From Ignavibacteriota bacterium (lineage in GTDB: Bacteria > Bacteroidota > Ignavibacteria > UBA10030): a stretch of DNA of 64,000 bases. Each line of letters starts with the position of its first letter. Position 1 is the first letter of the stretch. The DNA lies in NCBI GenBank assembly GCA_963701295.1, contig OY969585.1, positions 480,001-544,000 of the forward strand, read 5' to 3'. The notes under the pieces were generated by a model. That model saw only the letters and a program-made list of their open reading frames with translations. It did no database searches and had not been told where the DNA came from. Positions 49,142 to 64,000 of the stretch are shown here, one piece after another. Position numbers and translations under genes: made by a program.

Positions 49142-49214
49142 GCCCCTATCGTCTAGAGGCCTAGGACACGGGCTTTTCAAGCCTGGAACACGAGTTCGAA
49201 TCTCGTTGGGGGCA
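49142..49214 (+). tRNA. tRNA-Glu(TTC)
   Basis: GCCCCTA/TGGGGGC acceptor stem, CGGGC-TTTTCAA-GCCTG anticodon arm, GTTCGAATC. Confidence 0.95.
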
Positions 49215-49243
49215 CAAGGGTTTTAGCATTTTCCTCTCCTAAT

Positions 49244-49283: not shown

Positions 49284-50363
49284 ATGGCTTCCTTGATTAA
49301 ACGTTCTAACGGTATCTACTATTTCATTACTCAATTCAATGGTGTGCGTCGTTGGATTAGTACGGGTGAGAAAACTCGTGAGAAAGCTCTCAAGAGAATC
49401 CCTTCCCTCAGCTTCGAACACAGACACAAAAACAAAATTCCCAATCTTTCTGACTACATAGAGCAATTTCTCAGCATCGGATGCAATAGCTATCGAGAAG
49501 GAACGAAAGAAATTTATGAAAGAGCAATGTATTCCTTTCTCGATTGCGTGGGTAATAAAAAGCTCTCTCTCATTAGCATAAAAGATATTGATAAGTACAG
49601 ACAAGCAAAGCTTCAAATTATTCTCCCTACTACTATGAATATTTATCTTCGAACTCTCAAATCCGCATTTAATAAAGCAGTTCAATGGGAGCTCTTGCAG
49701 CATAATCCTTTTTCAAGACTACCACTCTGTCCTGTTCCTCAACGAGCTCCACAGTTCTTCACTCTCGATCATTTTAAAGCATTGACAAAAACGATCAAGG
49801 AACCATGGCTGTTGCAGGCCATCCATCTTGCAGTCTTTACCGGAATGCGAAGATCCGAGATAGTAAATTTGCAATGGAAGCATATTGATTTTTCAAGGGA
49901 GTTAATTATTGTCGAATCGGATGCAAATTTTCAAACAAAGACCGGAAAACGACGGCTTCTTCCGATGAACTCTATAGTATTTCAAATGCTACGGTCTATG
50001 TTTATCACAAGAACAGGAGAATATGTCATTATGTTGAATGGAAAGAAGTTGCGAGACATTTGGCTTTCAAGGAGATTTAAACAATACATCTGCAAAATGA
50101 ATATTGACATTTCCATGCATTTTCACATTCTTCGTCACACTTTCGGCAGTTGGCTAGCACAGGCCGGAGTGCCTATATACGAAATACAAGCACTTATGGG
50201 TCATTCAAACATAAGGGTTACAATGTCGTATAGCCACTTAATACCGAAACAATTGAGAGCGAGCGTTGAGATGCTTGTACCGTTTGATCAATTAATTCAT
50301 AACGGACAACCCTGCGAGGACATTGATCCTCGCAAGACTTCTTCGCAAGCCATCGTTTTCTAG
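49284..50363 (+). CDS. Tyrosine recombinase/integrase 1
   Basis: TGMRRSE, KTG, HILRH, MGHS, catalytic Y (MSYSH). Confidence 0.95.
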   Translation: MASLIKRSNGIYYFITQFNGVRRWISTGEKTREKALKRIPSLSFEHRHKNKIPNLSDYIEQFLSIGCNSYREGTKEIYERAMYSFLDCVGNKKLSLISIKDIDKYRQAKLQIILPTTMNIYLRTLKSAFNKAVQWELLQHNPFSRLPLCPVPQRAPQFFTLDHFKALTKTIKEPWLLQAIHLAVFTGMRRSEIVNLQWKHIDFSRELIIVESDANFQTKTGKRRLLPMNSIVFQMLRSMFITRTGEYVIMLNGKKLRDIWLSRRFKQYICKMNIDISMHFHILRHTFGSWLAQAGVPIYEIQALMGHSNIRVTMSYSHLIPKQLRASVEMLVPFDQLIHNGQPCEDIDPRKTSSQAIVF

Positions 50364-52194: not shown

Positions 52195-52746
52195 TTACTC
52201 TAAGAGCAAATTAGACTCAGAATTGTTCGTTTCCCCTGGTCTGGTTTCAGATATAACCGCTGACTGGGTCGAGTCTGTTTCTTCAGACTGTTTACCAGAT
52301 TCCCTCCATTCACTTTCCACACGTTTTTTCACTTCTTGCAGATCCGTCAAATTTTGCCTGCAAAAATCAATGTGGCAGAGAATGAACTGCTTTGGAGTTA
52401 TACCTACTACTTTTGCGATCGATCCTAAATTGCCAGGCCAGTACATTCTATTTCGTCGATCCTCTGGTCTCTGGGATATAAGCCATTGACTTATAATTGG
52501 GAACAATGTGAAATCACTAGCATCTAATGAATAATCGCGATAATGTAATTTTAGTTTAGATTTCTCCATGTCAATTCGAAATAGATTTTCAAGCGTCGAT
52601 AGTTTCAAGAGTCGAATTTTATGTCTTTTTTTCATCCTTTTTTTGGCCGCTGGTTTAACCGAAATGGCATCTCCTGATTCCTTGAAAATTTCCAATAATT
52701 GCACATTACTCATTTTATTCTCCTCTGTTTTTTCTATTGGTCTCAT
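52195..52746 (-). CDS. Hypothetical protein, possible HTH
   Basis: 183-aa ORF; LGSIAKVVGITPKQF resembles a helix-turn-helix. Confidence 0.6.
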   Translation of the reverse strand: MRPIEKTEENKMSNVQLLEIFKESGDAISVKPAAKKRMKKRHKIRLLKLSTLENLFRIDMEKSKLKLHYRDYSLDASDFTLFPIISQWLISQRPEDRRNRMYWPGNLGSIAKVVGITPKQFILCHIDFCRQNLTDLQEVKKRVESEWRESGKQSEETDSTQSAVISETRPGETNNSESNLLLE

Positions 52747-52966
52747 TAATTTTCGTAATTGACATCATTTATATTCCTCATATGTCCAATATTTAGCCTT
52801 CCAGCAGAAAAAAGCAACTTTTTAAGTACATATAATTACACTTAATTATTTGAGTAATAGCCGTAATTCGCATGCTTTAGCAAATATTTTCCTAAATCTT
52901 CTTAATATTATCTCATATCCCCTTGTCATATTGGACAAAACGACTATTTCGATAAAGCCACATGGT

Positions 52967-53503
52967 TTATTTTACTGAACAAAACTCATGTTTTAATACA
53001 TCGGACTTTCTTTTTGCTAGCCTTAGAGCAAGCTTCATGTATTTATCTGACTCACAATTATTAGGACATATGTATTTAATTTCTCGATCTTGAGTAATTT
53101 CAGCCAAACACTGCATATAAATTTTAATTTCTGGATCGTTCCCTTGACCATTTTTCTTCCACCCACAATTATTTCTCCAGTACTTGCAATTTGCCAGATA
53201 TTCCTTGATATCATGATCGGGACAAATAACGATTATCGGTATGCTATAGTCAGTAATCGAACTCATAGCATGCGAACATGCTTCTAAAAGTGCTTTTTCT
53301 CGAGATCCATTAAATATGTACCCAGAATTATTCAATTCCCTGTCAATTCCTACAATTACTAATCCCCATACCCATATATATTTTCCATTTTGTATGTTTT
53401 TTCTCAAGGCTGAAAGATAAATCATCTTTTTAAAAGGTCGATTTTCCTCGTTATAATTTTTAGTTTCTTTCAATTTTATAATCACTTTAATCCCCCTCCC
53501 CAT
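52967..53503 (-). CDS. RNase HI-fold protein lacking catalytic carboxylates
   Basis: Colinear by eye with E. coli RNase HI, including the W(R/K)..GWK basic protrusion; D10/E48/D70/D134 positions are S/L/P/L. Confidence 0.65.
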   Translation of the reverse strand: MGRGIKVIIKLKETKNYNEENRPFKKMIYLSALRKNIQNGKYIWVWGLVIVGIDRELNNSGYIFNGSREKALLEACSHAMSSITDYSIPIIVICPDHDIKEYLANCKYWRNNCGWKKNGQGNDPEIKIYMQCLAEITQDREIKYICPNNCESDKYMKLALRLAKRKSDVLKHEFCSVK

Positions 53504-53609
53504 TTTATCTAGTACAACACAAGTTTAATTTGATTTTTTTAATTCAGTATATTGTTGTTTGATTTGTCATTATTACTTCAGGTACAACAGTGTATACATG
53601 CAAACATCT

Positions 53610-54038
53610 TCGCACTTCGTGCGATTGCGAACACCTCGCAAATAACGCTCGTGTTCGCAAATTATGTATTTTTCTTCTTTCATTTTATCCTACCTTAGGG
53701 CGGATTTCAGCCAGCCCTTTTTTCTCAAGGGCTATTTTTCTATTAAACTCAAATTGTTACGTCTTATGAAAAGAAGTTATGAGCTTCTCTCTAGTTTTAT
53801 CCTACCTCAGGTATGGATTCTTTACCACATAGATCAAACTCTTTTAAGAAGATTGAATAGGCCGGGGTGCCCGTCTGCCTATGCGGATAACTTTCATATG
53901 TGAATTTATCCATTTTATGTGGTCCCAGTCCCGGTCTATAAACGACCCAGGAAGCACCGCTGGCTACTACTTGGATTTCCTTTTCAGGAAGAGCAATCCG
54001 TTAGAATCTTTTCGACATCGACATTGAGTTATTTTTTT
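53610..54038 (+). ncRNA. Candidate large structured non-coding RNA (or structured ssDNA element)
   Basis: Nested long-range stems and about 10 local hairpins in a relatively GC-richer patch, followed by a T7 tract; strand inferred from G-U pairs. Confidence 0.5.
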
Positions 54039-54301
54039 CATTTAATTGCAATCTTATTTTGTTTAACATTTTCTGTTATTGTTGTCAATTTATAAAAGCT
54101 ATATATAATGTTGATGAACATATTTTGTTCTTCTATACTATATATAGCCTTGAACAAAATTTTAGCAACTGAAATGAGTGTAAAAAGAGACGCCCATATA
54201 GGAACTTCCTATATGGAAAATCGAAGGAAAAATCAGTTTATGAAGAGATGGTTTGGTAGAAAAAACAATTCAGAACAATATAATGAACGACACCTCAATG
54301 A

Positions 54302-54937
54302 TCAGTCAGACAAGATTTCTACTTCTCCCGAAATAAAATCATCCAGCTTTATTTCCCTCTGACCTGAATTCTCAGTGTAAACTAAAGTCGGAACAACAAT
54401 CACTATTTTCATAGGTTTGATACAGAGCTTCCTCCTGAATATTCTATTTTTCGCACCTAATCTTTTATCTTTCCTAAACGCTGTAACTAGGTTCATTAGA
54501 TTCAAGAAATCTCTTATTTTTTTGTCAGATAGTGAATTGTCATTTTCAAGAATATTAATCTGACCATGTCTGAGTAATGCATAACACAGTGCTACTCGCA
54601 ACAATTGGTTCCACATTTCATTAGTGATTTTATCTGATAGACTATATCGCCATTTAGCCTGCTCATTATATTTTTTATCTATTTCAACATGTTCGAAACC
54701 CTCTGATGGCGCATCTCTATTATAAATCCATCGACTACGCATTTTATCAATAAGGGTACTAATATCATCGTATGAGCACTTATGCTTGACAAGCCTGTCA
54801 TTCATTTTTTCCATAATATCACTTGCAAAGATTCCTTTTTTTCTAATTTTCATATTTAGTTTATCTTCAACAAGGATTGCTAATAACTGCAAGGCTCGAT
54901 ATTCCATCTCTAATTCTTCAGTAGCCATTTCACCCAT
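54302..54937 (-). CDS. Putative wHTH + WYL-like regulator
   Basis: N-terminal wHTH-like pattern; LVTAF...IKPMKI...LVY....REIKLDDF resembles a degenerate WYL domain. Confidence 0.5.
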   Translation of the reverse strand: MGEMATEELEMEYRALQLLAILVEDKLNMKIRKKGIFASDIMEKMNDRLVKHKCSYDDISTLIDKMRSRWIYNRDAPSEGFEHVEIDKKYNEQAKWRYSLSDKITNEMWNQLLRVALCYALLRHGQINILENDNSLSDKKIRDFLNLMNLVTAFRKDKRLGAKNRIFRRKLCIKPMKIVIVVPTLVYTENSGQREIKLDDFISGEVEILSD

Positions 54938-55613: not shown

Positions 55614-55877
55614 ATGAAGAAACGATTCACGGAAGCACAGATAGCATTTGCCTTGAGACAGGCGTCATCAGGGATACCCATTGGAGAGATCACCCGAAAG
55701 ATGGGAGTCTCGGATGTGACATTCTATCGATGGAAAAAGCTCTATGCAAATTTAGAAGTATCGGAGATACGGCGCCTGAAGCAGCTGGAGGAAGATAATC
55801 GCCGATTGAAACAACTTGTGGCAGATTTGACACTCGATAAGCAAATGCTGCAGGAAGTATTATCAAAAAAGCTCTAA
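55614..55877 (+). CDS. IS3 transposase OrfA
   Basis: KRFTEAQI, GVSDVTFYRWKK, LKQLEEDN.RLK. Confidence 0.93.
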   Translation: MKKRFTEAQIAFALRQASSGIPIGEITRKMGVSDVTFYRWKKLYANLEVSEIRRLKQLEEDNRRLKQLVADLTLDKQMLQEVLSKKL

Positions 55878-55897
55878 AGCCTGCCCTTCGCCGGGAG

Positions 55898-56716
55898 TTG
55901 ATCCAGGAGGTGCAGGCAATCTATGGAGCAAGTGAACGGCGGGCTTTGAGAGTAATGAAATGGCCACGGTCAACACATCGCCAAAAAAGCGCTCGAGATC
56001 CGCAACTGCCATTACGGTTGCGCTTGCGGGAGTTAGCAGCAACACGCATAGCATACGGATATCGTCGGCTTCATGTGCTTTTAAGACGTGAAGGTTGGCA
56101 GATCAACCACAAAAGAGTGTATAGGCTATATCGTATGGAAGGCCTGTCAATACGTAAGAAAATACCTCGACGAAGAGTGGCTTGTGTAAAGCGGGAGATA
56201 CGCCCGGCGGCATTGACGAGGAATGAGTGTTGGAGTATGGACTTTGTCTCTGATCAACTATTTGACAATAGACGTCTAAGAGTGCTGGTGATCTTAGAGA
56301 ATTACACCAGGCAATGTTTAGCACTTGAAGTAAATGCAAAGATACGAGGTATCGATGTGGCAACGACGTTAGAACAAATCACACGTGAACATGGATTTCC
56401 GAAACAGATCAAGGTGGACAATGGACCGGAATTTATCTCGAAGGATTTAGATCGATGGGCGTACTGGAATCATGTTGAATTGGATTTTAGTCGTCCGGGC
56501 AGACCATCGGACAATGCACTGGTGGAAGCGTTCAACTCTCGTTTTAGACAAGAGTGTTTAAATCAGCATTGGTTCCTGTCGCTGGAAGATGCAAAAGAGA
56601 AACTTTCTGCCTGGCGAAACGAATACAATACCCAGAGGCCGCACAGCTCTTTAGGTTATAGAACACCGTTGGAAGGTAGGATGAAAACAAGCAATGCTGA
56701 AGCCTTTGCAGCATAA
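55898..56716 (+). CDS. IS3 transposase OrfB (DDE; expressed via -1 frameshift)
   Basis: YGYRR, WSMDF, VDNGPEF, VEAFN, YN..RPHSSL. Confidence 0.93.
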   Translation: MIQEVQAIYGASERRALRVMKWPRSTHRQKSARDPQLPLRLRLRELAATRIAYGYRRLHVLLRREGWQINHKRVYRLYRMEGLSIRKKIPRRRVACVKREIRPAALTRNECWSMDFVSDQLFDNRRLRVLVILENYTRQCLALEVNAKIRGIDVATTLEQITREHGFPKQIKVDNGPEFISKDLDRWAYWNHVELDFSRPGRPSDNALVEAFNSRFRQECLNQHWFLSLEDAKEKLSAWRNEYNTQRPHSSLGYRTPLEGRMKTSNAEAFAA

Positions 56717-56774: not shown

Positions 56775-56819
56775 CTTTTTACTAAATTTATATTGGATCA
56801 CTTTTTGGGGGGCAGGTCA
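56775..56819 (-). mobile_element. Orphan terminal IR of a second IS407-group element
   Basis: Minus strand reads TGACCTGCCCCCCAAAAAGTGATCCAA from 56819. Confidence 0.7.
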
Positions 56820-57166
56820 GTCGCATACTTGACACTCTTGCCGATTAGATGCTGGAGGTAGGATTCAATATGTTGCTGCTGAATCCTGATAATGGCCGCT
56901 GGTTCGATTGAATCGACCGATATATCCTGACTTTGGAGAAATCCTTTCAGATCACTGATATAGGACTCAATGGAGTTTTCTGCGACCTTCTGCTTTTTCA
57001 AGGATTGAATAAAGGCACTTAACGAAATAAAGTTCGATTCGGATGGTTGACTTTGATTCAACGAGATATCCTCTGGTTCGATTAACTCACCACTAGTCAG
57101 AAAAAATTCTTCTATAAGGCGATTTCCAAGCTCATAGATGCCAATAACAGCACTTTTAAAAATCAA
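56798..57166 (-). pseudogene. Truncated XerD-like integrase (N-terminal SAM-like domain only)
   Basis: FIQSL...AENSIESYISDLKGF...IESYLQHL...KYAT, cut at the IS end; the DLPPKK* tail is IS-derived. Confidence 0.7.
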
Positions 57167-58505: not shown

Positions 58506-59558
58506 CTATTTTGAAAGAACGGTAACGTGTCTTTCTTTAAGCCATAAAGAAACATTTACCAAACTGATAAGTACAGGTACTTCAACTAATGGGCCAATAA
58601 CGGCTGCAAATGCAACACCGGAATTGATTCCAAATACTGCAATAGAGACTGCTATTGCCAATTCGAAGTTATTGCTCGCAGCCGTAAAGGAAAGCGTTGC
58701 GGACTTTGCGTAATCGGCTCCCGCCTTCTTTGCTAGATAAAATGATATAAAGAACATCAAAACGAAATACACGACAAGAGGAAGAGCAATGCGTAATACA
58801 TCCAGAGGAATTTTCACTATGTACTCACCTTTTAGTGAGAACATAACTACGATCGTAAACAAGAGTGCAATGAGGGTTATCGGTGAGATTTTAGGAATGA
58901 ACTTTTGCTCGTACCATTGCTTTCCTTTCAGTCGCAACATTGTGAATCGAGTAATTATTCCTGCAAAGAAAGGAATGCCGAGATAGATGAAAACGCTTTT
59001 AGCTATTTGTCCTATTGTGATATCCACAGCAAATGTCCGCAAACCTAACCACGTCGGAAGCACCGTCAGAAACACATACGCATAGACAGAAAAGAACAGC
59101 ACTTGGAAGATCGAATTGAAGGCAACAAGTCCTGCAGCATATTCCGTATCACCTTTTGCAAGTTCATTCCAAACGATAACCATAGCGATGCAGCGAGCAA
59201 GTCCGATGATGATCAATCCTGCCATATATTCTGGATATCCGCGGAGAAAAATAATAGCAAGAATGAACATCATCACAGGTCCAACAAGCCAGTTTTGGAT
59301 CAGGGAAAGTGAAAGCACTTTTGTATTCTTGAAAACATCGCCAAGTTCTTCATATTTCACTTTTGCTAATGGCAGATACATCATGAGAATCAAACCGATG
59401 GCAATAGGAATATTGGTCGTTCCGGACTGAAAGGAATTCCAGAAGCCAACGATGCCTGGGAAGAAATAACCCGACAATACTCCAAAAACCATCGCGAGAA
59501 ATATCCAGAGCGTCAGATACCGGTCAAGAAATGAAAGCCGCTTTATCACATTTTGCAT
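58506..59558 (-). CDS. acr3: ACR3-family arsenite efflux transporter
   Basis: [45 protein letters not shown]. Confidence 0.96.
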
Positions 59559-59567
59559 GTCAAGCTC

Positions 59568-60011
59568 TTAGTTTAATCTTGAGGGTTGTGGTTCAGCAAT
59601 CCATTTTTCGATTTGAGCTTTTATTTGATTGCGGATATCTATTGTTTTGTGAAGTTTCTCTTCGAATGTCCCTTGCAGATTTGAAGGATCGGGAAAGCTC
59701 CAATGAAGCTTCTTTGCAATACCCGGGAATATTGGACATCGCTCACTGCTTGCTTCATCACAGACTGTAATGACATAATTAAAACGCCGTCCCTGCTTAT
59801 AAAGATCAAACACATCTTGTGTCTTCTTTTGAGAAATATCAATTGCCATGTCCTTCATAGCTTCGATTGCAAGAGGATTAAGTATTCCGGGTTCAAGTCC
59901 GGCGCTTTCAGCAATGAACCTATTTCCTGCAAGATGGTTTAATAGCGCTTCTGCCATTTGGCTTCTCGCACTATTATGAACGCAAACGAAAAGAACTTTT
60001 TCTTTCTCCAT
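59568..60011 (-). CDS. arsC: Thioredoxin-coupled arsenate reductase (LMW-PTP fold)
   Basis: [16 protein letters not shown]....RCP, HWSFPDP. Confidence 0.95.
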
Positions 60012-60155
60012 AGTATCTCCTTAACGATTTAATGATTCCATTGAATATTCTTGCGGAAATATTTTAAGTCTGTTCCTGTCATTTAGATTACTTTCACGCA
60101 ATGTAATATAATGGGAATAGACAATGGAGAGAAGTTACCTTATTGTTAACTTTTT

Positions 60156-60935
60156 TCAATTCTTCAACTTCTTGTATAGTGCATTCAATCTGTCTTGATA
60201 AAATCCTTTGATTGTGGTTTCTTCTTCAGCTAATGGTCTTACCGGCACTAAATCCATAACTTCGGCCGGTGTCAACCCAGATTCGTACATTGTCTTTGCA
60301 GCACCGTTAAGCATTTTTGGAATGGCATCCTCCAGAGTATTATCCGATATGCCAAAGGATTTTGCTAGTTCCTGCAATTCATACAATTGAAACCAAAAAT
60401 AGGTCGGTCCCATCGCTGTGGTAATTGCAAATGATTCTAGGAGTTCCTCCGGCACTTCCGGGCAATCACCTAGTATGCCGAACAGTTCGAGCACTGTCTT
60501 CCTTTTATCTTCACTTATAGTGCTGGAGAATGCAACCGGATTGTATCCGGCATTTACAACGGAGGGGGCGTTTGGATTAATACGAGCAATGTTTTTAAAT
60601 CCACCGAGTCCCTCAGAGAGTTTAGCAATTGATACTTTTGGAGCTAGTGATATAACAAGCGCTGATGGATTCATAACGGATTTGATTTCCTGCAATATCT
60701 CACTAACTACCGGAGGGTGAAGTCCGACAAGAACAATATCACACGATGCCGGTAGTTTTGCATTGTTGACTACCATTTCGATGTGTTGAAACTCGTTTTT
60801 TAGTTTATTCAAAACATCTGCATTGTTATCGCTCACGACGATCTTGTTCGGAAGTTTTCCGACACGGCTCCATCCCTTTAATATGATCTTTGCAACACGA
60901 CCGCCGCCTATAAAGCCAATTGTCAATTGTTCCAT
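60156..60935 (-). CDS. Pyrroline-5-carboxylate reductase-like NAD(P) oxidoreductase
   Basis: GFIGGGRVA Rossmann motif, RINPNAP, AMGPTYF. Confidence 0.75.
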   Translation of the reverse strand: MEQLTIGFIGGGRVAKIILKGWSRVGKLPNKIVVSDNNADVLNKLKNEFQHIEMVVNNAKLPASCDIVLVGLHPPVVSEILQEIKSVMNPSALVISLAPKVSIAKLSEGLGGFKNIARINPNAPSVVNAGYNPVAFSSTISEDKRKTVLELFGILGDCPEVPEELLESFAITTAMGPTYFWFQLYELQELAKSFGISDNTLEDAIPKMLNGAAKTMYESGLTPAEVMDLVPVRPLAEEETTIKGFYQDRLNALYKKLKN

Positions 60936-60949
60936 ATCTGACTCTCCCC

Positions 60950-61357
60950 TTAATGTAATTTTTCAGTGTGATCTAATATCGTTCCGGCTATAACGGCTTG
61001 CACAGCTTCATCAATTGTTGTTATATCCGTTACAACAGGTTTGATGTGTAATTGAAGCATACTTTGATACGCCCCGTTACCCATGCCGCGTGCAAGTAAA
61101 ATCTGGCAATCCTTAATTGCTTCAGCCATACTGATATGCTTATTGTGGGATGACTCATCAAGGCCGTGTTGAGTGCCGGAATGATGATGTTCTTCGTGAG
61201 CGAAATTGTGATGGCCTATTTTCTCGCGGCGTTCTCTTTTAACAACTATGCCGTTTTCGACAAACAATACTTCATAGAACTTTGCTCTTCCGAAATGCTG
61301 ACTGATTGTCAAGCCGTCATCTGTAACGACCGCAATATTGATGTTTTTATTTTCCAT
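60950..61357 (-). CDS. NifB/NifX-family (FeMo-co-binding fold) His-rich protein
   Basis: ISQHFGRA, GMG.GA, His-rich loop. Confidence 0.85.
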   Translation of the reverse strand: MENKNINIAVVTDDGLTISQHFGRAKFYEVLFVENGIVVKRERREKIGHHNFAHEEHHHSGTQHGLDESSHNKHISMAEAIKDCQILLARGMGNGAYQSMLQLHIKPVVTDITTIDEAVQAVIAGTILDHTEKLH

Positions 61358-61369
61358 TTTGATATTCCT

Positions 61370-62071
61370 TTAGAATGATGAATAGAAAGTGTAGATTCCG
61401 CCAAGAATGACGAGAACTCCTGCAATGCGTTTTATCCATAAAACGATATTCGATCTGTTTGTCCAATCGAGATATGCTTGTATACGGGAAGTAAGTCCGC
61501 CCGCTGCAACGATAACTCCGCAATGTCCGAGTCCGAAAGCGAGAAGCAACATTCCCCCTGCTATAACGTTTGTGCTCGACATCTGAAACACAATACCTAA
61601 AACCGGTGCCATAAATGCAAATGTGCACGGACCAAGTGCTATTCCGAATATCAATCCGAGAACAAATGCAGACCAGAGCGCTGAACGATTCTGTATGGGA
61701 CGTAGATTCACTCCTGTATCAGGAAGGCGAATAATGTCCATCAGGTACAGCCCAACGATAAAGAAAACAACTGCAACAGCATATTTTCCATATGCACCAA
61801 CATCTCCCATAATTCTTCCGAGAGATGCAGTGATAATTCCGAGAACAGCAATTGTCAGTAAGATTCCAACAGCGAAAACGAAAGCAAGAAATACACCCCG
61901 TGATGTCTTTTTCTCATTTTTTGATGTGAGGAAACCAATGATAAGTGGAATACTTGATAAATGACACGGGCTTAGAAGAATGCTTAATATTCCCCATGAA
62001 AAGGAAGCAAGCAATGCAAGTGCCAGGTTTCCGTATAGAGCTTCCGTGAGTGCTGTGAAGAGAGACTCCAT
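61370..62071 (-). CDS. ccdA: CcdA/DsbD-beta thiol-disulfide transporter
   Basis: LSPCHL and GPCT cysteine motifs, six TMs. Confidence 0.85.
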   Translation of the reverse strand: MESLFTALTEALYGNLALALLASFSWGILSILLSPCHLSSIPLIIGFLTSKNEKKTSRGVFLAFVFAVGILLTIAVLGIITASLGRIMGDVGAYGKYAVAVVFFIVGLYLMDIIRLPDTGVNLRPIQNRSALWSAFVLGLIFGIALGPCTFAFMAPVLGIVFQMSSTNVIAGGMLLLAFGLGHCGVIVAAGGLTSRIQAYLDWTNRSNIVLWIKRIAGVLVILGGIYTFYSSF

Positions 62072-62074
62072 CGG

Positions 62075-62512
62075 TTATCCTTTTGAGTTGGAATTAGGTT
62101 TCAAACCTTTCGATTGCAGGAAAGCATCAATCTCTTTTTCCGGAAAATATCCTTCATGCCGCATAAGCTCTTTGCCGTTTGCATCAAGAAAGACTTGCGT
62201 TGGTATCAAGCGGATATTATAGTCTTTTGCAAAATGCGCTTGTTCTTCTTTCCATACATCGTAAAATACTATCTTGATTTGACTGCCGTATTTTTCTTCA
62301 ACTGCTTTCATCACCTTTTGCATGGCTTTGCAGGGAATACAATTTACCGATCCGAGTTCAACGAATGTGATGAGCGGGTTGGCAATTGTTGCGCTGGTAT
62401 CCTTCGTTACAGAAGTGGGTTTTGTTTTCTTCGTGGTTTTCTTTGATTGTGCAAATGCCGCTGAACCAAAAGCGATGCTTAGAATCAGAAATAATACTAT
62501 TTGTCTTTTCAT
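62075..62512 (-). CDS. Exported thioredoxin-family protein
   Basis: Signal peptide, CIPC, IPTQVFLD..GKE..RH.G. Confidence 0.9.
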   Translation of the reverse strand: MKRQIVLFLILSIAFGSAAFAQSKKTTKKTKPTSVTKDTSATIANPLITFVELGSVNCIPCKAMQKVMKAVEEKYGSQIKIVFYDVWKEEQAHFAKDYNIRLIPTQVFLDANGKELMRHEGYFPEKEIDAFLQSKGLKPNSNSKG

Positions 62513-62751
62513 GTGTGTGCTCCACTCAACCAAGAAAGGAGTTGTTCGTCTTTAGGAATTGAACCTGAACTCTTCACAGCGCCATCAACGACTAAGCCGG
62601 GAGTAGCGAGAATGCCGAATTTCATAATTTCCTGCAGATCGGTCACTTTTTCGATTTCCAAATTAAGTCGATGCTTATCATTCAACGACCGGACTTTTTG
62701 TTCAAGTGTTTTACATTTCGCACAGCCTGAACCGAGTATTTGAATTTTCAT
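62509..62751 (-). CDS. Small redox-active disulfide protein (MTH895/ArsE family)
   Basis: ILGSGCAKC, TPGLVVDG. Confidence 0.9.
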   Translation of the reverse strand: MKIQILGSGCAKCKTLEQKVRSLNDKHRLNLEIEKVTDLQEIMKFGILATPGLVVDGAVKSSGSIPKDEQLLSWLSGAHT

Positions 62752-62772
62752 CTGTAGATTCCTACTATTTTG

Positions 62773-63798
62773 TTAATACACAAGGTTAAATACATACCCT
62801 ACGATGATAATACCTACTGCAACGACGCTAACAAAAATGAATATCAACGGCATTTTCAAAACTTTCCGCAATATAATTGTTTCAGGCAATGAGAGACCAA
62901 TCACCGACATCATAAAGGCAAGCGTTGTGCCGAGCGATGCACCTTTTTCAAGCAGTGCATGAACAACGGGAATGATACCAGCTGCATTCGAGTAGAGTGG
63001 AACACCGATGAGGACAGCAATGGGAACTGACCACCATGCGGACTTTCCCATAAGACTGGCCATGAAATTCTCCGGCACATATCCATGAATACCTGCTCCG
63101 ACGGCTATGCCGACGAGAAGATATGGCCATACTTTTCCAACAATATCATTTACTGCGTCATAACCCGAGTGCATCCGGTCACGGAATGTTTGCACTGTTT
63201 CTTCCGGTGAAGCAGCATTGGAATGGATTTGATAGACCCAATCTTCAACGAAATGTTCGACCTTCAACCTGCCAATGACGTAACCGGAAGTGATGGCGAT
63301 GAGCAATCCTGTACTCACATAGAGCAAAGCTGTCTGCCAACCGAATAAACCGAATAACAATACAACGGCCACTTCATTGATCATTGGCGCTGCAATGAGG
63401 AAAGAGAATGTGACGCCAAGAGGGATTCCCGACTCCACGAAACCAATGAAGAGTGGGATTGCTGAACATGAGCAAAACGGAGTGACAATGCCGAGCATAC
63501 TTGCAAGAACATTGCCTGTAAAGAGAGATTTTCCTCCTAACATCTTGCGAGTACGTTCCGGGGAAAAGTATGTCCGCACAATACCGACTGCAAAAACCAC
63601 AAGTGTAAGAAGCAATAATACTTTCGGCGCTTCGTAAACAAAGAATCTTACGGCTTCCATCAATCGTTGGCCTTGGACTAATCCTGTCAAAGAAATAAAT
63701 GCGTCTGCAAGAGGCTGCAACGCTGTATACAGTATAACCCAAAGCAGCAAAAGAATCGTTGCGGCGCTAAGCGTATATTGTTCAATCATCTTCTTCAT
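62773..63798 (-). CDS. arsP: ArsP/DUF318 permease
   Basis: TPFCSCSAIP, APMINE, GVPLYSNAAG, LSLPE. Confidence 0.88.
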   Translation of the reverse strand: MKKMIEQYTLSAATILLLLWVILYTALQPLADAFISLTGLVQGQRLMEAVRFFVYEAPKVLLLLTLVVFAVGIVRTYFSPERTRKMLGGKSLFTGNVLASMLGIVTPFCSCSAIPLFIGFVESGIPLGVTFSFLIAAPMINEVAVVLLFGLFGWQTALLYVSTGLLIAITSGYVIGRLKVEHFVEDWVYQIHSNAASPEETVQTFRDRMHSGYDAVNDIVGKVWPYLLVGIAVGAGIHGYVPENFMASLMGKSAWWSVPIAVLIGVPLYSNAAGIIPVVHALLEKGASLGTTLAFMMSVIGLSLPETIILRKVLKMPLIFIFVSVVAVGIIIVGYVFNLVY

Positions 63799-64000
63799 AA
63801 TACACTCGTGTGCTCCAAGAGAATCTCTTTAAGCTTTTCTACGGTAGGCACAAAGCCCGCTATAGCGACCTTTTCGTCTATGACCAATCCGGGTGTCCGC
63901 ATGATGCCGTAGGAAGCGATCTTCTGATAGTCTTGGACCTTTTCAACGACAGCTTCGAGGTTCAATTCCTGTAACGCTTCCTTCGTCCGCTTTTCTAGTG
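63795..64000 (-). CDS. Second MTH895/ArsE-family redox protein, 5' end outside the window
   Basis: Minus strand reads LEKRTKEAL...VEKVQDYQKIASYGIMRTPGLVIDEKV...*; stop overlaps the arsP start. Confidence 0.85.
   Translation of the reverse strand, partial: LEKRTKEALQELNLEAVVEKVQDYQKIASYGIMRTPGLVIDEKVAIAGFVPTVEKLKEILLEHTSVL

What the first reader, a model, noticed from the sequence alone, without database searches (positions are those of the whole stretch)
52967..53503. RNase HI homolog with all four catalytic acids replaced
Seen, by manual alignment to E. coli RNase HI: IFTDGS/IYLSAL, YGAIL/WGLVI, NRMELMAA/EKALLEAC, LSTDSQY/VICPDHD, WKKRGWK/WRNNCGWK, ERCDELA/KLALRLA. The hybrid-binding basic protrusion is kept, the active site is lost, and the ORF is uninterrupted. 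Inference: a pseudo-enzyme that binds or protects RNA:DNA hybrids or structured RNA, or inhibits host RNase H or retron-type defences.
Basis: partly seen in the sequence, partly recalled or inferred. Interest (0 to 1): 0.7.

Follow-up and report, generated by a model that had tools for sequence, protein, structure and literature searches.

The report
Orphan catalytically dead RNase HI relative
An intact gene in a bacterial genomic island encodes a distant relative of the RNA:DNA-hybrid-cutting enzyme RNase HI that has lost its metal-binding residues, so it is likely a non-cutting binding protein, though it has no close relative and its target is untested.

Summary
The ORF (52967-53503, minus strand) is real and descends from bacterial RNase HI. 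A language-model search and profile tests agree; 7 of 7 examined best hits in related genomes are ordinary RNase HI. D10→S31, E48→L72, D134→L160 and H124→C150 are secure. D70→P95 holds gap-free, but profile aligners use neighbouring D96, so 'all four' is likely, not certain. D10 binds both metals, so cleavage is predicted lost either way. Neutral decay never left the frame open (0 of 18000 runs); 22 of 27 core positions stay hydrophobic. Hybrid binding is weaker than claimed: 2 of 19 invariant polar/Gly positions survive and the protrusion register is unresolved. The gene lies in a ~53 kb tRNA-Glu island. The host has its own intact-looking RNase HI, and no reverse transcriptase was found, so the retron idea has no local support. 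No close relative was found, so dN/dS is impossible and drift stays a real rival. This scan noted two similar dead RNase HI genes on other DNA (unchecked).

The parts
52967..53503 (-). ORF P0001, RNase HI-fold protein without the catalytic residues (178 aa from ATG; 172 aa from the likelier GTG at 53485)
53492..53501 (-). Shine-Dalgarno-like G-run containing GGAGG, 6 nt before the GTG start
   Evidence: sequence; SD-like motifs precede 379 of 1874 long genes against 3.5% background
53411..53413 (-). S31 at the D10 position
   Evidence: D in 82 of 83 canonical rows
53288..53290 (-). L72 at the E48 position
   Evidence: E in 83 of 83
53216..53221 (-). P95 at the D70 position (gap-free register) followed by D96, the only acid next to a catalytic position
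   Evidence: rival register
53135..53215 (-). residues 97-123, helix B / helix C / handle region (basic-protrusion equivalent); register uncertain
53054..53056 (-). C150 at the H124 position
   Evidence: H in 83 of 83
53024..53026 (-). L160 at the D134 position
   Evidence: D in 83 of 83; a contig of run X1 covers 52925-53149 with no difference
49171..49215 (+). 3' part of tRNA-Glu, the left attachment site of the island; repeated exactly (45 bp) at G000:C1:582074-582118, outside the window
49284..50363 (+). tyrosine integrase 1 of the island
   Evidence: PF00589
50292..51314 (-). tyrosine integrase 2 of the island
   Evidence: PF00589
51387..52142 (-). 251-aa Cys-motif ORF; weak relatives lie beside integrases or recombinases in other integrated elements
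52195..52746 (-). orphan 183-aa ORF, 220 bp downstream of the RNase HI-like gene on the same strand
54302..54937 (-). orphan 211-aa ORF upstream of the RNase HI-like gene on the same strand

Best explanation
The gene is an intact, distant descendant of bacterial RNase HI, lying in a tRNA-Glu genomic island, that has lost at least three and likely all four metal-binding acids, so it is predicted not to cut and likely works as a basic, non-catalytic nucleic-acid-binding protein with little of the hybrid-specific readout left. Shown: open frame, homology, the substitutions, the island, an apparently intact host RNase HI and RNase HII. Inferred: the five-strand, four-to-five-helix core was kept by selection after the active site was lost. 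Inferred: the old active-site face turned from acidic to basic (acids gone; R34, K35 and R68 in place of small polar residues; net charge +8), which would grip duplex backbone (hybrid, dsRNA or DNA) without cleaving. Inferred: it serves the mobile element as accessory cargo, for example by covering duplexes against nucleases. The ligand is untested.
For: Homology. Shared clade marks with one RNase HI subgroup: beta1-beta2 spacer of 11 residues in 60 of 61 long-loop enzymes and in the query, against 8 in 22 of 22 short-loop enzymes; 'AC' motif in helix A in 55 of 61 and in the query. D10 binds both metal sites (PMC4032109, passages), and D10N abolishes cleavage but not binding (PMC11594918, passages). 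Selection for an open frame: neutral evolution of three intact RNase HI genes to 23-30% identity gave 7-11 stops on average and 0 of 18000 open frames. Selection for the fold: 22 of 27 core columns hydrophobic against a neutral mean of 15.7-17.7 (7, 19 and 52 of 1000 runs reach 22). The model made without an alignment already gives a strand/helix order close to RNase HI's, though without strand 3 and at pLDDT 37. With an alignment of 83 canonical enzymes the model reaches pLDDT 89.5 and matches RNase HI (Foldseek E 2.8e-7, TM 0.70; VIA Z 15.5, rmsd 3.1, 142 aligned), which is partly circular. Net charge +8, pI 9.0; canonical range -3 to +9. Strong SD-like motif. Island.
Against: Singleton: no relative by phmmer over 1.84 billion representatives (2 non-self hits, both long repeat proteins) or in any other search, so purifying selection today cannot be measured. 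Amino-acid composition is more random-like than in the seven other island ORFs tested (-0.108 bits per residue against -0.043 to +0.052; Cys 4.7% against 1.0% genome-wide). Host codon usage does not favour the reading frame over the other two sense frames (the same holds for two other orphan ORFs). The neutral-decay test starts from sampled relatives, not the true ancestor, and the core test uses an alignment optimised with the query. No coordinates were available, so the basic face is read from an alignment, not from a computed surface. Net charge is within the canonical range.
Confidence: 0.42

Rival explanations
1. A once-selected dead RNase HI that is now drifting: it has no current function, and the frame is open only because selection ended recently.
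For: Singleton; random-like composition with 8 Cys and no codon preference for the frame; neighbourhood has decay marks: an IS3-type element, a truncated XerD-like fragment, a partial attC-like hairpin and a short AbiEii ORF further along the island.
Against: Full-length frame, SD-like motif and core hydrophobicity above neutral expectation. The neighbouring ORFs are singletons too, so orphan status reflects poor sampling of this element as much as decay.
Confidence: 0.25
2. A specific RNA:DNA-hybrid binder that shields R-loops or primers from the host's RNase HI, like an engineered D10N mutant.
For: S67 at the T43 position, K70 at R46, K164 at R138, two Trp and five K/R in the helix B-C region are kept (E. 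coli numbering via and recall). Dead D10N RNase HI binds R-loops well (PMC11594918, passages). The host's own RNase HI is the short type (133 aa, best family RVT_3).
Against: 17 of 19 invariant polar/Gly positions changed, far beyond the catalytic ones; handle loop shortened and low-confidence in the model; 13 of 48 near-invariant columns kept overall.
Confidence: 0.15
3. The fold is kept purely as a protein-binding scaffold or decoy, for example for a partner among the neighbouring orphan ORFs or for a phage or host factor that targets RNase H.
For: Core kept while the functional surface is almost wholly changed. Dead RNase H domains serve as structural modules in retroviral RT (connection domain) and Prp8 (PMC5603734, passages). 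The island carries defence-type cargo (AbiE, TIR, SLATT, WD40-repeat proteins).
Against: No conserved gene neighbour: none of 8 related element stretches has an RNase H-like ORF. No PADLOC match. No reverse transcriptase in the genome.
Confidence: 0.1
4. It is still a metal-dependent enzyme with a rebuilt site, using D96 with nearby E69/D98, or a Cys/His site from C94, H97, C146 and C150 at the ends of strands 4 and 5.
For: D96 aligns to D70 in some alignments. The sequence shows ICPxH and ICPxxC at the ends of two adjacent strands. Relocated acids are known in YqgF and Tex (PMC3985635, passages).
Against: D10, needed by both metal sites, is Ser. E48 and D134 are Leu. Cys excess is also what AT-rich drift gives. 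Geometry could not be checked without coordinates.
Confidence: 0.06
5. The resemblance to RNase HI is chance.
For: No family-library hit; model without alignment finds no significant fold match.
Confidence: 0.02

Closest known systems
Bacterial type-1 RNase H (RNase HI, RnhA; Pfam PF00075): E. coli RNase HI (PDB 1G15, 1GOA), Chlorobium tepidum RNase H1 (PDB 3H08), and the long-loop RNase HI of Ignavibacteria/Bacteroidota (names)
   Same: Length, predicted fold and element order, beta1-beta2 and helix A-beta4 spacers of the long-loop subgroup, WG in strand 2, AC in helix A, LA in the last helix, basic net charge; 16-27% identity to that subgroup.
   Different: D10, E48, D134, H124, N44, N130 and most likely D70 replaced; 2 of 19 invariant polar/Gly positions kept; about 20 extra N-terminal residues; branch of 6.3 substitutions per site against a median of 0.13; island-borne, not a housekeeping gene.
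Inactive RNase H-fold domains: retroviral RT connection (tether) domain and Prp8 RNase H-like domain
   Same: RNase H fold retained without catalysis and used for binding or structure (PMC5603734 and PMC3985635, passages).
   Different: Those are domains of large eukaryotic or viral proteins; this is a stand-alone bacterial protein that keeps the last helix and a helix C-like segment.
Short 'Group A' RNase HI of Firmicutes that cannot replace RNase HII/HIII (PMC1950709, passages)
   Same: Extra RNase HI gene of doubtful activity beside other RNases H.
   Different: Group A lacks the basic protrusion; this protein has a protrusion-length segment and has lost the catalytic acids. The paper passages seen do not describe loss of all acids.
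Engineered dead RNase HI (D10N) used as a hybrid binder
   Same: No cleavage expected.
   Different: D10N keeps the whole substrate groove; here the groove is also rewritten, so hybrid specificity cannot be assumed.

Membership tests
RNase HI (type-1 RNase H, PF00075) | Sequence homology to the family | tested here: met
   weak but consistent
RNase HI (type-1 RNase H, PF00075) | Reaches the Pfam/NCBIfam family model | tested here: not met
   no RNase H model at E<=1 (Pfam) or E<=10 (NCBIfam); not found by the PF00075 genome scan
RNase HI (type-1 RNase H, PF00075) | RNase H fold (five-stranded sheet, helices A-E) | tested here: inconclusive
   alignment-based model matches but was built on RNase HI rows; the alignment-free model has a similar element order at pLDDT 37 and no significant match
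RNase HI (type-1 RNase H, PF00075) | D10, E48 and D134 carboxylates | tested here: not met
   S31, L72, L160
RNase HI (type-1 RNase H, PF00075) | D70 carboxylate | tested here: inconclusive
   P95 by gap-free spacer and model; D96 by gapped profile alignments
RNase HI (type-1 RNase H, PF00075) | H124 loop histidine | tested here: not met
   C150
RNase HI (type-1 RNase H, PF00075) | Basic protrusion (helix C plus handle loop) | tested here: inconclusive
   5 K/R in 24 residues against mean 6.2 in 28; register ambiguous, pLDDT 57
RNase HI (type-1 RNase H, PF00075) | Metal-dependent cleavage of RNA in RNA:DNA hybrids | not testable with these tools
   needs an assay
Retron / reverse-transcriptase-associated module | Reverse transcriptase encoded in the locus or genome | tested here: not met
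   PF00078: 0 matches in G000 (99.3% complete); control rang in 3 of 14 genomes
Catalogued anti-phage defence protein (PADLOC) | Match to a system model | tested here: not met
   0 families at E<=0.01
Integron gene cassette | ORF bounded by complete attC sites | tested here: inconclusive
   one partial attC-like hairpin on the opposite strand at about 53582-53665; none seen by eye on the other side; attC label recalled, no attC model run

The most novel reading that the evidence does not exclude
Mobile elements have repeatedly turned RNase HI into stand-alone, nuclease-dead duplex clamps, and this protein is one: it covers R-loops, primers or msDNA-like hybrids on behalf of its island, blocking host or phage RNase H and so acting as a natural counterpart of the D10N hybrid sensor.
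Probability: 0.15. Interest if true: 0.75.

Novelty: new variant of a known kind. Interest (0 to 1): 0.4.

Why it matters
Dead RNase H folds are known as domains of large proteins (retroviral connection domain, Prp8). A stand-alone bacterial RNase HI that lost its whole active site yet kept its frame and core was not found in seven literature searches of the open-access library (listings seen, subscription papers not covered). If it binds hybrids, it would show that mobile elements steer R-loop or primer processing with pseudo-nucleases, and it is small and easy to assay. The scan's two other, unchecked cases on mobile DNA would make this a recurring theme. As a singleton with no measured function it is at present a lead, not a system.

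Tried and rejected
Searches for relatives that found none: word search near length (1 of 63 candidates, itself) and longer (0 of 284); phmmer of representatives (2 non-self hits, both long repeat proteins, rejected); genome contigs (0 of 63 stretches); viral contigs (1 of 14, L012, rejected because no ORF covers the match in frame and it stems from a shared short word at the end of an unrelated gene); metagenome contigs (0 of 135); phages (10 records, best E 0.1; the widest match, E 5, is annotated 'Rnase H'); plasmids (1 record, E 2). In 150 related genomes 12 matched at E<=0.1; 7 were fetched and are RNase HI, one more overlaps a PF00075 hit, 4 were not examined. In 400 phylum genomes 15 non-self places matched at E<=0.01; 5 are the same RNase HI genes and 10 (9 with stops inside) were not examined. 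The alignment-free model gave no significant fold match. Direct BLASTP against the host's RNase HI gave nothing, so a recent duplication of the host gene was rejected. Elements sharing the integrases (G002, G010, G019; 20 kb each) or the 251-aa ORF (G138, G594, G559, G576, 15 kb each; a second element in G000, 11 kb) hold no RNase H-like ORF (0 of 8). The 183-aa and 211-aa neighbours have no relatives in the scans run. Promoter scan: 12 sites against 7.8 +/- 3.5 expected, uninformative. Rfam: only tRNAs. Sequencing runs: no RNA holder listed; one DNA run covers part of the ORF and may be the source sample. The tree places the query among long-loop enzymes with low support on a saturated branch, so no donor is claimed (host RNase HI left out, 91 well-aligned columns only). 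No complex prediction was run, as no binding partner is claimed. Supplements of the papers were not read.

Full report
The ORF. Window 52967-53503 (minus strand) is an open frame of 178 codons. The public gene call starts at the GTG at 53485 and gives 172 residues. That GTG follows a G-run containing GGAGG at a 6-nt spacing, and SD-like motifs precede 379 of 1874 long genes of this genome against 3.5% background. A contig from run X1 covers 52925-53149 with no difference, so the C-terminal third is not an assembly slip, though that run may be the source sample.

Is it RNase HI? Family libraries and PDB sequences give no RNase H hit. Several weaker lines agree, however. The ESM Atlas returns RNase H clusters at 0.93 (19 of 30 hits with PF00075), many of them viral; with the RNase H families excluded the nearest named clusters are still called ribonuclease H. 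Searching 150 related genomes gave 12 matches at E<=0.1, and all 7 that were fetched are canonical RNase HI genes. A profile of those 7 scores the query at 22.5 bits, a profile of 120 further homologues at 19.0, and 0 of 2000 shuffles reach either. The query ranks second of 19387 ORFs in its genome, after the host enzyme. These profiles were drawn with the query's help, so their scores are inflated; the Atlas result is not subject to that. The AlphaFold model made without an alignment is poor (pLDDT 37) and finds no fold match, but its order of strands and helices is close to that of RNase HI, lacking strand 3. With 83 canonical rows the model reaches pLDDT 89.5 and matches RNase HI best in all three libraries; this is partly circular. 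The query shares two loop lengths and the helix-A 'AC' motif with a long-loop subgroup whose named members are Ignavibacteria and Bacteroidota enzymes. It is not a copy of the host's short RNase HI.

The active site. In blocks on which all aligners agree, D10 is S31, E48 is L72, D134 is L160, H124 is C150, N44 is R68 and N130 is M156. D70 is less certain. The spacer from E48 to D70 is 22 residues in 56 of 61 long-loop enzymes, which puts P95 there with no gap, and the model begins helix B at H97 with D96 as its cap. Profile aligners instead open gaps to place D96 on D70. D10 ligates both metal ions (PMC4032109, passages) and D10N alone almost abolishes activity (PMC11594918, passages), so canonical cleavage is predicted lost in either register. 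Relocated acids occur in this superfamily (PMC3985635, passages), and D96, E69, D98 and a Cys/His group (C94, H97, C146, C150) lie near the old site by alignment; no coordinates were available to test them.

Selection or decay? Neutral evolution of three intact RNase HI genes down to 23-30% identity produced 7-11 stops on average, and 0 of 18000 runs stayed open. In the 91 well-aligned columns, 22 of 27 core positions remain hydrophobic, against 15.7-17.7 expected when only stops are forbidden (7-52 of 1000 runs reach 22), while 2 of 19 invariant polar or Gly positions are kept. That is the pattern of a fold kept and a function discarded. Against it: the composition is the most random-like of eight island ORFs tested, with 4.7% Cys; host codon usage does not favour the frame; the true ancestor is unsampled; and no relative exists for dN/dS. 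Past selection is therefore well supported and present selection is not shown.

Hybrid binding. The helix B-to-D segment keeps two Trp and five K/R in 24 residues (canonical mean 6.2 in 28), and S67, K70 and K164 sit at T43, R46 and R138. But the segment aligns in at least two ways, has pLDDT 57, and in the model helix C is residues 113-118 followed by a loop of about five residues, much shorter than the canonical handle. The beta1 motif and N44, which I recall as substrate-groove contacts, are rewritten, partly to Arg and Lys (R34, K35, R68). The protein is basic (net +8, pI 9.0). General duplex binding is thus more likely than a preserved hybrid-specific readout. Both are inference.

Context. 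The gene lies 3.8 kb inside a ~53 kb island bounded by a 45-bp repeat of the tRNA-Glu 3' end, after two integrases and among orphan ORFs. The island also carries AbiE, TIR, SLATT-like and WD40-repeat genes. Eight related element stretches carry no RNase H-like ORF, so it is variable cargo. The host has RNase HI and HII, and no reverse transcriptase was found, which removes local support for a retron link.

Comparison with what is known. It works like the dead RNase H domains of retroviral RT and Prp8 (PMC5603734, passages) in keeping a fold without catalysis, and it fails membership of active RNase HI on D10, E48, D134 and H124. Extra RNase HI genes of doubtful activity and pseudogenising copies are known in bacteria (PMC1950709, passages). 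Phage RNase H fusions with new roles exist but need catalysis (PMC13648698, abstract). PMC9719913 (passages) gave only background. Seven searches of the open-access library listed no stand-alone bacterial RNase HI lacking all acids. Two earlier notes of this scan describe dead RNase HI genes on other mobile DNA (e1-5953684, e1-6509363); they are unchecked, and a sequence look-up found no look-alike of this protein, so they are leads for a theme and not support.

Verdict. Observation partly confirmed: dead RNase HI descendant yes, fourth acid likely, protrusion unresolved. Best explanation: non-catalytic, basic nucleic-acid binder carried by a mobile island (0.42). Rivals: drifting relic (0.25), hybrid-specific shield (0.15), protein scaffold or decoy (0.10), rebuilt metal site (0.06), chance (0.02). 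Novelty: new variant of a known kind. Interest 0.4.

Noticed in passing
window 49171 to G000:C1:582118: A ~53 kb island integrated at tRNA-Glu with a perfect 45-bp terminal repeat and two convergent, overlapping tyrosine integrases; the same integrase pair sits in G002 with wholly different cargo.
   Followed up: partly
window about 53582-53665 (+): Partial attC-like hairpin; 49 bp of it match longer attC-like palindromes in G003 (90%) and G028 (83%) that end in a GTT core. The attC label is recalled; no other copy was found in G000.
   Followed up: partly
L002:6061-17807 (G000:C1 about 549060-560800): Cluster of large conflict-type genes in the island: a 1441-aa WD40-repeat protein, a SLATT-like protein (below cut-off), a TIR protein and an AAA-RyR protein.
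   Followed up: partly
L002:2670-3691: AbiEi antitoxin with a short (128-aa) AbiEii ORF that covers only the first part of the toxin model.
   Followed up: partly
window 55614-56716 and 56798-57166: IS3-type element (a second identical copy at G000:C1:2370079-2371314) next to a truncated XerD-like N-terminal fragment.
   Followed up: partly
window 58506-64000 (-): Genes that look like an arsenic-resistance and redox cluster (Acr3-, ArsC-, thioredoxin- and permease-like; names recalled from the sequences, not scanned).
   Followed up: no
G000:C1:399096-399476: The host's RNase HI is the short type (best family RVT_3) with D10/E48/D70/D134 equivalents visible; all 7 same-family genomes sampled give similarly weak PF00075 scores, while some sister families have the E. 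coli-like type.
   Followed up: partly
window 54095-54151 and 54193-54217: A 26-bp-arm AT-rich inverted repeat and a terminator-like hairpin downstream of the 211-aa ORF.
   Followed up: no
G000:C1:2196000-2207000 (L089): A second small integrated element near tRNA-Arg with an integrase, an ORF that looks like a replicative helicase (recalled) and a relative of the 251-aa ORF.
   Followed up: partly
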